A stretch of 16,510 nt of DNA from Candidatus Wukongarchaeum yapensis. GTDB lineage: Archaea > Asgardarchaeota > Wukongarchaeia > Wukongarchaeales > Wukongarchaeaceae. The notes under the pieces were generated by a model. The model was not told the origin of the DNA, ran no database searches, and worked only from the letters and a program-made list of their open reading frames with translations. Below are positions 10,868-13,473 of this stretch, piece by piece (within the stretch, counting starts at the first letter, position 1; every line of letters starts with the position of its first letter). The stretch covers positions 1 through 16,510 of the forward strand of contig JAEOSI010000024.1 in the NCBI GenBank assembly GCA_016840425.1. The letters are read 5' to 3'. A program made the translations under genes and the position numbers.

Positions 10868-10881
10868 GCGGGGGTGGCCGA
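10868..10881 (+). repeat. Left copy of a 14-bp direct repeat gcgggggtggccga (= tRNA-Leu nt 1-14)
   Basis: Exact match to 13116-13129 with no extension on either side; a GC-rich island in an AT-rich context. Confidence 0.93.
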
Positions 10882-11176
10882 TTTTTCTTTGAGTTGTTTT
10901 CTATTGTGTTTTTGTTGTTTTTCTTCTTTTTCCGCTGTGTTTTTTCGTTTTTCTGCTTTGAAAACGGGTTTTTGATTTTGATACCTTTCTTATAATGCGT
11001 TTATTTTTGTTTTTATTTTTTAGGAGTGTTTTCGTTTTACATGATTTTTTAATGGTTTGTGGATTTCTCTTATTTCGTGTTTTTTTGATTTTTTCCTCGT
11101 TTTTTGCTCTTTTTTGATCTCTTTTTTTCTTGTTTTATGCTTGGAAAACAGGTTGTTTTTCGTTTTTCATTTTTTT
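10882..11176 (+). other. Low-complexity, strand-biased T-rich tract (~60% T on the + strand)
   Basis: Counted 35/60 T in 10921-10980 and 36/60 T in 10981-11040, with many T4-T7 runs. Starts at the first base after the left direct repeat. Confidence 0.85.
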
Positions 11177-11210
11177 AAAGCCTAATATATTCACTTTTAC
11201 CCCCTCTCCA

Positions 11211-11261
11211 TAAAGTTTATATATGGCATATAGTATATGTATGATCTATCTTTAATGGGGT
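11211..11261 (+). promoter_or_regulatory. Promoter and SD of the TnpB-like gene
   Basis: TATA tttatata at 11216-11223 preceded by purine-rich taaag; SD ggggt at 11257-11261, 7 nt before ATG 11269. Confidence 0.55.
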
Positions 11262-11268
11262 AAAAATT

Positions 11269-13116
11269 ATGCGAAGAACGGTAACAGAATTAGTGTGTTT
11301 AACCTTTCAAAGCAAACTTTTGGAGGTAGCAGAAAAAGAAAGAGTTAAGATTGATGATCTTATGAGACGTTTTCAATCCGCTAAAAGAACCGCTTTCAAA
11401 AGGCTCGTAGAAGGTTTGAAAAAGAGCAAGGAGATAGAAAAAGAGCTTGTAGAGAAATTTATTCTAAATTCTGGATTTGCAAGGTCTGCTATTTCTGATG
11501 CGAAAGCTATAATGGATAGTCAAAAGGAACTACTATCTTACTATGTTCAAAATTATGAGGGAAAGATAAGAAAGAGCAAGAAAAAGCTGGAAAAATGTCG
11601 TTCTGAACTGAAGGGGAAGGGTTTACTTTCCAGAATAATGAAGTATGAGGGGAAGAGAGATCTCCTAAAACAGCATTTAGAGAATGAGACTATTCCTAAG
11701 ATGATTTTTGGGAGGAGAAGTAATTTTGAGCTTCTTTTAAAGGGAAAGATTTCGAGGGAAGAATGGAGAGAATTGAGGATAAACCAAGTTTACAGCAAAG
11801 GCAATGCTTATCACAAAGGTAACCGAAACTTGAGGGTTACTTATGAAGAAAGTGAAAAACAGTTTTTTCTATGTATAAATTATCCTCCCAAAGAAAGGGG
11901 GAAAAGGGGTATAAAGCAGAGATACAAGCTTTTTGTTCCAGAGTTTTTTAAACCTTATATCTTATCCAGTCTTGAACTCGTGAAAAAAGTTGTTGGAAAA
12001 AAGAAAGAGATTGTTTATGCTACTAAAAAACCGCACACAGTAAGAGTGATTCGGAAGAAAGGAGGGGAGTATTATGTTTATATAACAATAGAGATTTCTT
12101 GTCCAGATGAATCCCTCTCAAATGCTAATGAAAAGGGCTTGTTGGGCTTAGATCTTAATGCTAAGGGTATAGGAGCAGTAATAGTTCTGCCCAAAGGTAA
12201 CTTAAAAGCGCACAGATGGTTTCCGTGTCACGAACTTTTATACGCAAGAAGTGAAAAACGTTCTAACTTGATAGGAAACCTCGTGGTTAAGGTTTTCAGG
12301 TGGGCTAAAAGATTCGGCGTAAATACTGTTGTTTCTGAAAGTTTTAACCCGTTTAAAAAAGACCACGATACCAATGTAAAATACAACCGTGCAACAGTCA
12401 ACTTTTGCAAAGAGAAAATGGTTAAAACCGTTAAGAGTAGAGCCGCAAAAGAGAGTTTTGTTCACATAGAAGTTTTTTCCGCCTATAGCTCTATAATAGG
12501 GGAGATAAAATATCAAAAAATGTACGGCTTGAACGGTCACGAAGCTGCTGCTTTTATTATCGGGAGAAGGGGATTAGGATACAACAAAGAAAACATCCCG
12601 AAAGAGTTTAAAAAGAGTTTAAAGCCAGAGGGGCGTCGCCGATGGAAGGATGACGCTGATCCTTTGGCGAGCATCTGCCGCCAGTGGGGCGGTCTATGGA
12701 AACAAGTTTCGAAGATAAAAAACAGTTTCTTCGAAACAACAGGGGAGATACCTTTTAACCTTCGCCGGTTCTTTAGGCATCTCCTAATTAAGAGTAGTGG
12801 CGCTAACAGCGCGCTTCAGCTCGCGCTCTCCTACATTGTGAAAAAAGGAGAGACGGAAGTAGAGGATATAACCGACCCGTCTTCGGGATTCCGATCCTAC
12901 CTCGACGACTTACTAGCCTGTTCGATTCTCGAAAACGCTGAAGAACTACGTGAGAATCGTAGCACTAGGCGCAAACAGCTACTATGCGCTGTCGTAGACT
13001 TTATAAAGAATGAAGGACTTTTTGCCTTCAAACGTCTACGATCCGAAGAAAACACCCTCAAAGGATCAAAGCCTCTAAAACGCCTCGTAGAGGCTTGTGT
13101 GGGCGTTTTTGAGTAG
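11269..13116 (+). CDS. tnpB: IS200/IS605-accessory TnpB-related RuvC protein (Cas12f/TnpB superfamily), 615 aa with a long C-terminal extension
   Basis: Family motifs DLMRRFQSAKRTAFKRL, PKMIFG, YSKG...KGNRNLR, YVYITIE; RuvC-I GLDLN; LLYARSEKR; RuvC-II VVSESF; AYSSIIG; RuvC-III HEAAAFIIGRRG. No Zn-finger cysteines between RuvC-II and RuvC-III. Confidence 0.88.
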   Translation: MRRTVTELVCLTFQSKLLEVAEKERVKIDDLMRRFQSAKRTAFKRLVEGLKKSKEIEKELVEKFILNSGFARSAISDAKAIMDSQKELLSYYVQNYEGKIRKSKKKLEKCRSELKGKGLLSRIMKYEGKRDLLKQHLENETIPKMIFGRRSNFELLLKGKISREEWRELRINQVYSKGNAYHKGNRNLRVTYEESEKQFFLCINYPPKERGKRGIKQRYKLFVPEFFKPYILSSLELVKKVVGKKKEIVYATKKPHTVRVIRKKGGEYYVYITIEISCPDESLSNANEKGLLGLDLNAKGIGAVIVLPKGNLKAHRWFPCHELLYARSEKRSNLIGNLVVKVFRWAKRFGVNTVVSESFNPFKKDHDTNVKYNRATVNFCKEKMVKTVKSRAAKESFVHIEVFSAYSSIIGEIKYQKMYGLNGHEAAAFIIGRRGLGYNKENIPKEFKKSLKPEGRRRWKDDADPLASICRQWGGLWKQVSKIKNSFFETTGEIPFNLRRFFRHLLIKSSGANSALQLALSYIVKKGETEVEDITDPSSGFRSYLDDLLACSILENAEELRENRSTRRKQLLCAVVDFIKNEGLFAFKRLRSEENTLKGSKPLKRLVEACVGVFE

Positions 13117-13139
13117 CGGGGGTGGCCGAGCCCGGTCAA
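12630..13139 (+). ncRNA. Putative omegaRNA-like scaffold (to 13115) plus tRNA-derived guide
   Basis: GC shift and a dense set of perfect stems (12923-30/12952-59, 12992-99/13034-41, 13011-16/13025-30, 13069-77/13088-96, 12808-13/12822-27), located where TnpB omegaRNAs lie. The 5' boundary is uncertain. Confidence 0.55.
13116..13129 (+). repeat. Right copy of the 14-bp direct repeat (start of the intact tRNA-Leu)
   Basis: Identical to 10868-10881. Confidence 0.93.
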
Positions 13140-13256
13140 AGGTGTTGTGGGTCAGATGCTGGCTTTAGGCGCCAGACTTAAGATCTGGTGGCGTAGACAC
13201 GCCATTAAAACGAAACGTGGCGCAAGCCTCCGCGGGTTCAAATCCCGTCCCCCGCA
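13116..13256 (+). tRNA. tRNA-Leu(TAA) with two non-canonical introns: 13140-13166 (position 21/22) and 13197-13225 (variable-arm loop); 85 nt mature, CCA not encoded
   Basis: Acceptor GCGGGGG/CCCCCGC, A73; anticodon arm CCAGA-CT-TAA-GA-TCTGG (anticodon 13179-13181); T arm GCGGG-TTCAAAT-CCCGT. Both introns fold into BHB motifs. Confidence 0.92.
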
Positions 13257-13372: not shown

Positions 13373-13473
13373 GCCCCGGTAGCTCAGCCTGGTTAGAGCG
13401 ACTCCTTGGTATTAAATAAAATATAAAATTAGCAAAAAGGAGTAGGTCGTGGGTTCGAATCCCATCCGGGGCT
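13373..13473 (+). tRNA. tRNA-Thr(GGT) with a canonical 37/38 intron (13412-13437, 26 nt)
   Basis: Acceptor GCCCCGG/CCGGGGC, U73; D arm GCTC/GAGC; anticodon stem ACTCC/GGAGT; T loop TTCGAAT; relaxed BHB (one mismatch in the central helix). Confidence 0.93.

What the first reader, a model, noticed from the sequence alone, without database searches (positions are those of the whole stretch)
12630..13115. A ~490-nt highly structured RNA hidden in the open C-terminal extension of the TnpB-like ORF
Seen: after RuvC-III the sequence becomes GC-richer and full of stems: tcgcc/ggcga (12636-40/12666-70) enclosing aggat/atcct; gccgcc/ggcggt (12677-82/12688-93); agcgcg/cgcgct (12808-13/12822-27); cccg/cggg (12876-79/12884-87); cgattctc/gagaatcg (12923-30/12952-59); gcgca/tgcgc (12969-73/12985-89); tcgtagac/gtctacga (12992-99/13034-41) enclosing tgaagg/ccttca; aagcctcta/tagaggctt (13069-77/13088-96). 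The loop of the last hairpin (aaacgcc, 13078-84) is complementary to ggcgttt (13102-08), 7 nt before the tRNA. Established: omegaRNAs overlap the tnpB 3' end and have a pseudoknot next to the guide. Inference: an unusually large scaffold that also stays in frame for well over 100 extra codons, i.e. dual coding.
Basis: partly seen in the sequence, partly recalled or inferred. Interest (0 to 1): 0.75.

Follow-up and report, generated by a model that had tools for sequence, protein, structure and literature searches.

The report
Guide-RNA scaffold inside TnpB reading frame
The last ~490 bases of this Asgard-archaeal TnpB-like gene are a conserved, folded RNA (the guide-RNA scaffold of the mobile element) that the protein reading frame runs straight through, ending exactly at the first base of a tRNA gene; overlap of this kind is known, but not at this size or in this setting.

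Summary
From about 12620 to 13117 (+) the sequence is under nucleotide-level, not codon-level, constraint. Synonymous divergence falls 3-4 fold, folding is more stable than shuffles, and helices covary.

The RNA is homologous to the right-end RNA of bacterial (Bacillaceae) relatives, where it lies after the stop codon. It ends in the canonical omegaRNA pseudoknot, a hairpin loop (12978-12983) paired with the last bases of the element (13112-17).

The protein is a TnpB/Cas12-fold protein of the RIIIr-4 type (RuvC-III His, no zinc finger).

The frame through the RNA is kept: 0-1 stops against 10-16 in the other frames, and in-frame indels. In a 40%-identical sister lineage all landmark spacings differ by multiples of three. 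No folded domain is predicted for the tail.

The element (10882-13115) sits in the 5' end of tRNA-Leu with a 14-nt target duplication. Nine of ten copies in this genome abut tRNA genes.

Verdict: a real omegaRNA-type scaffold, unusually large and truly dual-coding, and a new variant of a known kind. Earlier reports of this scan found the same family on other DNA of this genome. No RNA data exist, so expression and guide use are inferred.

The parts
10868..10881 (+). Left copy of the 14-nt target duplication GCGGGGGTGGCCGA (tRNA-Leu positions 1-14)
   Evidence: Exact repeat of 13116-13129. The same-genus genome G001 has the uninterrupted site.
10882..11268 (+). T-rich, ORF-free left end of the element. 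It starts with oligo-T and has TATA-like boxes near 11178-11192 and 11213-11226.
   Evidence: Sequence. Solo and joined copies of 11100/11155-11240 occur elsewhere in the genome. Promoter function is inferred.
11269..13116 (+). 615-codon ORF of a TnpB-family protein (RIIIr-4 type). The core is residues 1 to about 450, with D295, E357, H424 and no CxxC. The tail is residues 451-615.
   Evidence: Foldseek finds Cas12f/Cas12k/TnpB at E 1e-9. PF27229 SSO2105_N is recorded on near-identical proteins. TIGR01765 scores 1.4e-8. AF2 pLDDT is 70-94 for the core and 31-53 for the tail.
12620..13117 (+). Structured RNA (omegaRNA-type scaffold), about 495 nt, wholly inside the ORF
   Evidence: Third-codon-position identity jumps from about 0.6 to 0.8-0.93 at codon 451. 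dS is 0.24-0.30 here against 0.8-0.9 upstream. See also z-scores and covariation. G-U pairs outnumber A-C 97 to 13 on the + strand.
12632..12655 (+). M1 hairpin, stem GCGUC/GACGC with conserved loop GCCGAUGGAAGGAU
   Evidence: The loop motif is conserved in G002/L053 and, after the stop codon, in Bacillaceae, where the stems differ but pair.
12798..12810 (+). M2 hairpin GCGCU-AAC-AGCGC
   Evidence: It is GCGGU-UAC-ACCGC in L053/G002, a compensatory change. It is UCGCU/AGCGA, CUC.../GAG... in Bacillaceae.
12946..12962 (+). M3 hairpin CUACG-UGAGAAU-CGUAG
   Evidence: 100% paired in 21 archaeal and bacterial sequences. 34 cells have changes on both sides, against 10.0 +/- 2.3 in shuffles.
12968..12990 (+). 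Pseudoknot hairpin GGCGCA...UGCGCU; its loop 12978-12983 (GCUACU) is the 5' strand of the pseudoknot
   Evidence: Helices 3 and 4. This loop is the most variable segment of the module.
13112..13117 (+). 3' strand of the pseudoknot (AGUAGC): the last 4 nt of the element plus tRNA G1 and C2
   Evidence: 5 of 6 pairs show compensatory changes in 15 copies (CG 9/UA 4/AU 1; GC 11/AU 2/UA 2). The same architecture occurs in Bacillaceae (loop CUUGGUU x terminal AACCAGG).
12991..13042 (+). Long hairpin (GUCGUAGACUUU.../...GUCUACGAU) carrying the conserved GUAGAYUUUAUA motif and the inner stem UGAAGG/CCUUCA
   Evidence: Helices 5 and 6 (AU to UA, UA to CG changes). The motif is shared with Bacillaceae.
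13048..13110 (+). Terminal domain: AAAACACCC x GGGCGUUUU enclosing the hairpin 13069-13096
   Evidence: Helices 7-9.
13116..13255 (+). tRNA-Leu(UAA) gene with introns. G1 is the last base of the ORF's TAG stop. 13116-13129 is the right copy of the duplication.
   Evidence: Rfam tRNA-clan hit of 27 bits, cut by introns. The acceptor stem can be read from the sequence. The orthologous uninterrupted gene is in G001. ARAGORN misses it.

Best explanation
Window 12620-13117 (+) encodes the guide-RNA scaffold (omegaRNA) of a 2,234-bp TnpB-family element (10882-13115). The element is inserted in the 5' end of tRNA-Leu.

The scaffold is the archaeal, enlarged version (about 495 nt against about 270 nt) of the right-end RNA of the nearest bacterial relatives. 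It shares three hairpins with conserved loops, a GUAGAYUUUAUA motif, and a pseudoknot between a hairpin loop and the last bases of the element. That pseudoknot is the hallmark of TnpB guide RNAs.

In this archaeal lineage the tnpB frame has no stop after the nuclease core. It is translated through the scaffold to within 0-70 nt of the tRNA. The same bases therefore serve RNA structure, which is the dominant constraint, and a weakly constrained, probably unstructured protein tail whose frame is nevertheless conserved.

Shown here: RNA-level constraint, covariation, homology, frame conservation and element borders.

Inferred: that the RNA is cut from the tnpB transcript and bound by the protein; that the bases after the scaffold (the start of the tRNA) act as the guide; and that the tRNA, cut off from its own promoter, is made by read-through from the element.
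For: RNA constraint:
- dS is 0.24-0.30 in codons 456-615 against 0.81-0.90 in codons 1-455.
- Substitutions are spread evenly over codon positions (18:20:24; 25:20:25) against 73:58:161 upstream.
- The onset is at codon 451, about 12620.

Stability: z is -4.1 against dinucleotide shuffles and -4.5 against codon shuffles for 12589-12828.

Covariation in 15 copies:
- 94.7% of cells are paired.
- 14 pairs have compensatory change, against 6.6 +/- 1.7 in shuffles (0/500).
- Slid controls are 38-49% paired.
- The pseudoknot shows compensatory change in 5 of 6 pairs.

Cross-domain homology: the M1, M2, M3, pseudoknot-hairpin and GUAGA motifs are collinear with Bacillaceae loci, where they follow the stop codon. 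M3 is 100% paired across 21 sequences.

Orphan copies lacking the gene still show compensatory changes.

Protein: Cas12f/TnpB fold; D295, E357, H424 and no CxxC, matching RIIIr-4 as defined in PMC10691335.

Frame:
- The ORF frame has 0-1 stops against 10-16 in the other frames.
- All indels of the intact copies before about 13047 are multiples of 3.
- New stops against the consensus number 5 in the ORF frame against 17 and 9.
- The G002/P0010 lineage also reads through its RNA, and landmark spacings differ by 42, 60 and 6 nt.

Borders: empty site in G001 and the 14-nt repeat.
Against: - There is no transcript evidence; no RNA run holds the sequence.
- The 5' half (12620-12920) has only 8 close copies, so most of its helices are invariant rather than covarying.
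- The RuvC-III aspartate is histidine, so nuclease activity is assumed from clade conservation, not shown.
- RNase P would cut exactly between scaffold and tRNA and so remove the presumed guide.
- The 10-14-nt target duplication is not what IS200/IS605 transposition gives.
- Within the last 200 nt, orphan copies gain no more stops in the ORF frame than in the other frames. C110 and L055 shift frame after about 13047. The last 20 or so codons are therefore not protein-constrained.
Confidence: 0.8

Rival explanations
1. The structured RNA is real but is not a TnpB guide scaffold. It would be a cis-acting leader of the tRNA (processing, stability or promoter function) that tRNA genes retain after the element decays.
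For: Nine of ten copies abut a tRNA gene. Short remnants of 195-215 nt are kept next to tRNAs, three of them with the same 5' border at 12921 although they are not close kin. One such remnant is a deletion derivative of a full element at the orthologous site. The insertion separates the tRNA from its own promoter.
Against: The same RNA motifs and pseudoknot occur at the right end of Bacillaceae and G002 relatives that are not next to tRNAs. The architecture matches published omegaRNAs (pseudoknot between a hairpin loop and the transposon end: PMC12558985; PMC13565253). The two roles are not exclusive.
Confidence: 0.1
2. The covarying helices act at the DNA level, as single-stranded right-end hairpins and cleavage-site pairing recognised by a transposase, as in IS200/IS605 ends. 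They would not be RNA.
For: The pairing between an internal, highly variable segment and the very end of the element resembles guide/cleavage-site pairing at IS200/IS605 ends (general knowledge). Minus-strand folding is as stable as plus-strand (z -5.0).
Against: About 495 nt of constrained structure is far more than any known end needs. G-U pairs outnumber A-C 97 to 13 on the + strand. No Y1 or other transposase lies in the element, and no Cas1 is in the genome. The internal partner lies about 130 nt from the end.
Confidence: 0.05
3. Residues 451-615 are an ordinary C-terminal protein domain, and the RNA structure is a by-product of its composition.
For: The frame is conserved. dN/dS is 0.29-0.58, below 1. 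A WxLW motif is shared across the family.
Against: Synonymous sites are the most conserved, not the least. pLDDT is 31-53. There is no Pfam hit for residues 440-615. The motifs lie in non-coding DNA in Bacillaceae. Gene-less copies keep the structure.
Confidence: 0.05

Closest known systems
TnpB-omegaRNA (OMEGA) systems of IS200/IS605-type elements, e.g. ISDra2; archaeal sotRNAs of Halobacterium
   Same: The RNA starts inside the 3' part of tnpB and runs to the element's right end. It has a multi-helix scaffold and a pseudoknot between a hairpin loop and the last bases of the element next to the flank. Gene-less derivative copies keep the scaffold.
   Different: The scaffold is about 495 nt and lies wholly inside the reading frame (about 165 codons, against some tens of codons). 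No TnpA is in the element. There is a 10-14-nt target duplication. The flank is always the first bases of a tRNA gene. There is no Rfam match.
RIIIr-4 clade of TnpB (Altae-Tran et al. 2023, PNAS, PMC10691335)
   Same: The RuvC-III aspartate is replaced by histidine (H424) and the C4 zinc finger is absent. RuvC-I D and RuvC-II E are kept.
   Different: Placement in that tree was not computed here. The paper does not describe a tRNA context or an ORF running through the RNA (0 occurrences of 'tRNA' in its text).
Right-end RNA of the Bacillaceae relatives (Anoxybacillus, Parageobacillus, Neobacillus, Bacillus cereus group; loci L066-L129)
   Same: Collinear M1, M2, M3, pseudoknot-hairpin and GUAGAYUUUAUA motifs. 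Proteins are 33-38% identical over residues 16-457.
   Different: There the RNA is about 270 nt and starts about 25 nt after the stop codon. It ends in UUAGUAACCAGG. The flank is usually a few bases upstream of a protein start codon, not a tRNA.
IStrons (group I intron plus TnpB; Zedaveinyte et al. 2024, from memory and as cited in PMC12558985)
   Same: One stretch of transposon RNA serves two competing roles, and the fate of the transcript decides which role wins.
   Different: There is no intron here. The competing roles are mRNA tail, guide scaffold and tRNA precursor.

Membership tests
TnpB / Cas12 RNA-guided nuclease family | RuvC-containing TnpB/Cas12 fold | tested here: met
   The AF2 model (core pLDDT 70-94) matches Cas12f, Cas12k and ISFba1 TnpB at probability 1.00, E down to 1.2e-9. 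TIGR01765 scores 1.4e-8; NF040570 is only 0.025.
TnpB / Cas12 RNA-guided nuclease family | Canonical D-E-D catalytic triad | tested here: not met
   D295 and E357 are invariant. The RuvC-III position is H424 (GHEAAAF); D is found there only in 4 of 13 aligned relatives.
RIIIr-4 clade of TnpB (PMC10691335) | RuvC-III Asp replaced by His | tested here: met
   H424. The definition is read.
RIIIr-4 clade of TnpB (PMC10691335) | No C4 zinc finger between RuvC-II and RuvC-III | tested here: met
   There is no CxxC anywhere in P0001.
RIIIr-4 clade of TnpB (PMC10691335) | Phylogenetic placement within the clade | not tested
   The reference tree and its sequences are not at hand.
omegaRNA (TnpB guide RNA) | Conserved structured RNA overlapping the tnpB 3' end and reaching the element's right end | tested here: met
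omegaRNA (TnpB guide RNA) | Pseudoknot between a scaffold hairpin loop and the last bases of the element | tested here: met
   12978-83 x 13112-17, with 5 of 6 pairs covarying.
omegaRNA (TnpB guide RNA) | The RNA is expressed, bound by TnpB, and its 3' flank-derived part guides DNA cleavage | not testable with these tools
   No RNA run is listed. There is no biochemistry.
IS200/IS605 transposon | Y1 (or serine) TnpA, and insertion without target duplication | tested here: not met
   The element holds a single ORF. Direct repeats of 14, 13 and 10 nt of the target tRNA flank three copies. A TnpA elsewhere in the genome was not searched for.
Rfam RNA families (including sotRNA RF02656/RF02657) | Match to a curated covariance model | tested here: not met
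   Only the two tRNAs match in the window at E <= 1.

The most novel reading that the evidence does not exclude
One transcript has three overlapping products: the TnpB tail, the guide scaffold and a tRNA.

The guide would be the first 16-20 bases of the tRNA itself, so the element homes to, and spreads among, tRNA genes with similar 5' ends.

The choice between RNase P cleavage (tRNA plus a guide-less scaffold) and protein capture of the uncut junction (a guide-bearing RNA) would set the balance between host tRNA supply and element activity. The pseudoknot reaches into tRNA G1-C2.

The frame would be kept open so that translation carries transcription through to a tRNA that has lost its own promoter.
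Probability: 0.25. Interest if true: 0.8.

Novelty: new variant of a known kind. Interest (0 to 1): 0.6.

Why it matters
It gives a clean natural case in which the scaffold of an RNA-guided nuclease and about 165 codons of its own gene occupy the same bases. The relative strength of the two constraints can be measured. A bacterial outgroup shows the un-overlapped ancestral layout.

It also documents a roughly two-fold expansion of a TnpB guide RNA in an Asgard archaeon. The scaffold is placed directly against tRNA genes. This raises testable questions about how guide maturation, translation and tRNA processing share one transcript, and about how a TnpA-less TnpB element chooses its sites.

Tried and rejected
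- Cas1/casposase as the source of the 13-14-nt duplication: no PF01867 match in the 92%-complete genome.
- RNA evidence: no RNA holder is listed among the public runs.
- Laying DNA contigs of four runs showed only repeat-broken contigs and the known deletion copy. No empty-site joint appeared.
- The metagenome scan with the loose M3 pattern returned chance matches only. None had a paired stem together with the other motifs.
- M1-M3 motifs were not found in the more distant relatives below 30% identity.
- Pfam finds nothing in residues 440-615, and BLASTP of the tail against tails of relatives finds nothing.
- ARAGORN finds no tRNA in the window because of introns.
- An internal promoter before 12630 (TTTAAAAA at 12604-11) is not conserved in other copies and was dropped.
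- Three short copies share the border 12921 but do not cluster. Spread as a 195-nt unit is therefore not supported, and the shared border stays unexplained.

Full report
**What is there**

The window comes from a Candidatus Hodarchaeota (Asgard) genome. Near-identical proteins carry that name. The ORF 11269-13116 (+) encodes 615 residues. GC content rises from about 0.36 to about 0.50 at 12600-13115. The ORF's TAG stop shares its last base with G1 of an intron-bearing tRNA-Leu(UAA) gene at 13116-13255.

**The stretch is under RNA-level constraint**

I compared this copy with three other full copies, one in the same genome and two in the same-genus genome G001.

| Codons | dS | dN/dS | Substitutions by codon position |
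|---|---|---|---|
| 1-455 | 0.81-0.90 | 0.14-0.17 | strong third-position excess (e.g. 73:58:161) |
| 456-615 | 0.24-0.30 | 0.29-0.58 | almost even (18:20:24; 25:20:25; 13:13:30) |

Third-position identity jumps from about 0.55-0.65 to 0.8-0.93 at codon 451, which is window position 12619.

Folding is more stable than controls:
- z is -4.1 against dinucleotide shuffles for 12630-13115.
- z is -4.5 for 12589-12828 against shuffles that keep the protein and codon usage.
- z is -1.8 to -2.4 for the later windows.
- z lies between -1.6 and +0.7 across the nuclease core.

**Copies and covariation**

The 3' part occurs ten times in this genome and six times in G001, at 78-95% identity. An alignment of 15 copies of the last 200 nt (A1) gives:
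- 94.7% of cells paired;
- 14 pairs with changes on both sides, against 6.6 +/- 1.7 in shuffles (0/500);
- 32 such cells, against 8.6;
- slid controls only 38-49% paired.

The best-supported helix is long-range. The loop of hairpin 12968-12990 (GCUACU, 12978-83) pairs with AGUAGC at 13112-17. That strand is the last four bases of the element plus tRNA G1 and C2. Five of its six pairs show compensatory change.

This is the pseudoknot type described for TnpB guide RNAs, a hairpin loop paired with the transposon end (PMC12558985; PMC13565253).

G-U pairs outnumber A-C pairs 97 to 13 on the + strand, so the folded strand is the strand of the ORF. The structure was predicted on that strand, so this check leans its way.

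**Homology to a non-coding RNA in bacteria**

The nearest relatives outside the genus are in Bacillaceae, at 33-38% identity over residues 16-457. Downstream of their stop codons lies a roughly 270-nt conserved region that ends in UUAGUAACCAGG. It carries, in the same order:
- a hairpin with loop CCGAUGGAAGGA (M1);
- the hairpin GCUAACAGC (M2);
- a hairpin with loop UGAGAAU (M3);
- a hairpin whose loop CUUGGUU can pair with the terminal AACCAGG;
- the motif GUAGAUUUUUAUAGA.

In the window these motifs sit at 12632-55, 12798-810, 12946-62, 12968-90 and 12994-13006. M3 is paired in all 21 archaeal and bacterial sequences, with at least eight different stems.

A sister archaeal lineage (G002 = L018, and P0010 = L053, 40-44% identity) keeps M1 and M2, and M2 carries a compensatory change there. 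More distant relatives lack the motifs. The RNA in the finding is therefore the family's right-end RNA, enlarged by about 220 nt of lineage-specific helices. Rfam has no model for it.

**The protein**

AlphaFold2 models residues 1-450 with confidence. Residues 451-615 score pLDDT 31-53. The model matches Cas12f, Cas12k and TnpB structures.

D295 and E357 are invariant, the RuvC-III position is H424, and there is no CxxC. These are the two stated hallmarks of the RIIIr-4 clade (PMC10691335). I checked the two features but not the tree.

**Is the overlap really coding?**

Four observations say the frame is maintained.
- The ORF frame has 0-1 stops in about 500 nt, while the other two frames have 10-16 each in every intact copy.
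- In the intact copies, every indel before about 13047 is a multiple of three (A3).
- Relative to the consensus, new stops number 5 in the ORF frame, and they lie mostly at the natural end. The other frames gain 17 and 9.
- The G002 lineage also reads its ORF through its RNA. The spacings M1-M2, M2-AACGCUG and AACGCUG-GCACUAG differ from the window's by 42, 60 and 6 nt, all multiples of three.

A WxLW motif at residues 473-477 recurs in tails across the family.

Against a functional domain:
- no fold is predicted and there is no Pfam hit;
- the last 20 or so codons shift frame in two copies;
- stop positions vary from 0 to about 70 nt before the tRNA.

I conclude that the frame is under selection and the tail's sequence hardly is. 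Why the frame is kept is not shown. One inference is that translation up to the junction helps transcription reach the tRNA.

**Context**

G001 has the uninterrupted tRNA-Leu locus. Comparison with it sets the element at 10882-13115, flanked by the 14-nt repeat GCGGGGGTGGCCGA. Two other copies have 13- and 10-nt repeats of their own tRNA's start.

Nine of the ten copies here, and the full copies in G001 and in a JGI contig, end 0-3 nt before different tRNA genes. Short copies are deletion remnants, and one is orthologous to a full copy in G001. Most insertions predate the split of the two species, since orthologous pairs are 85-95% identical.

The left end begins with oligo-T directly after the duplicated tRNA fragment. 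Earlier reports of this scan (e1-5394055, e1-5394169) reached the same reading of tRNA targeting from other copies. I re-derived it independently here.

**Limits**

- No RNA data exist for this organism.
- The 5' half rests on eight close sequences and two distant ones.
- Nuclease activity, guide identity and the mode of transposition are all inferred.

Noticed in passing
window 13373-13473: There is a second tRNA gene with a 28-nt insertion in the anticodon region (Rfam 57 bits). ARAGORN finds neither tRNA of the window.
   Followed up: partly
G000 contigs C268, C232, C259 (loci L008, L040, L041): Three gene-less 195-nt remnants start at exactly the same base (window equivalent 12921). They are only 82-88% alike and do not cluster together. 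The reason for the shared border is unexplained.
   Followed up: partly
G000 C77:465-800 (L006): A deletion copy joins the left end (11155-11209) to 12826-13110. It is the only copy not followed by a tRNA. Its flank, ACCGAGGTAGTACC, resembles a tRNA 5' end (11 of 14 bases match the start of the tRNA next to the G001 C1 copy) and precedes a protein gene.
   Followed up: partly
Bacillaceae loci L066-L129: The right ends (UUAGUAACCAGG) usually sit 5-12 nt upstream of an ATG, so the element's end may supply the ribosome-binding site. A segment just after the stop codon (ACCUGGUUACUAA) is complementary to the same right end.
   Followed up: no
loci L127, L134, L136, L138, L141; proteins P0013, P0014: Distant family members (Aquificales, Caldanaerobacter, Anaerolineae) also have 100-150 open codons beyond the conserved core. 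They share a short motif (SPLK..L.SGD.GR) there. The ORF-through-RNA layout may be widespread in this clade.
   Followed up: no
L060:1717 onward (G001 C39): At the site orthologous to the C259 remnant, G001 carries a different insertion whose end looks like the C-terminus of an IS5-type transposase. The assembly breaks there.
   Followed up: no
window 10882-11268: The left end is extremely T-rich (AT skew down to -0.74), with repeated GTTTTTC-like units, and it begins with TTTTT right after the duplicated tRNA fragment. That would stop transcripts from the tRNA's own promoter.
   Followed up: no
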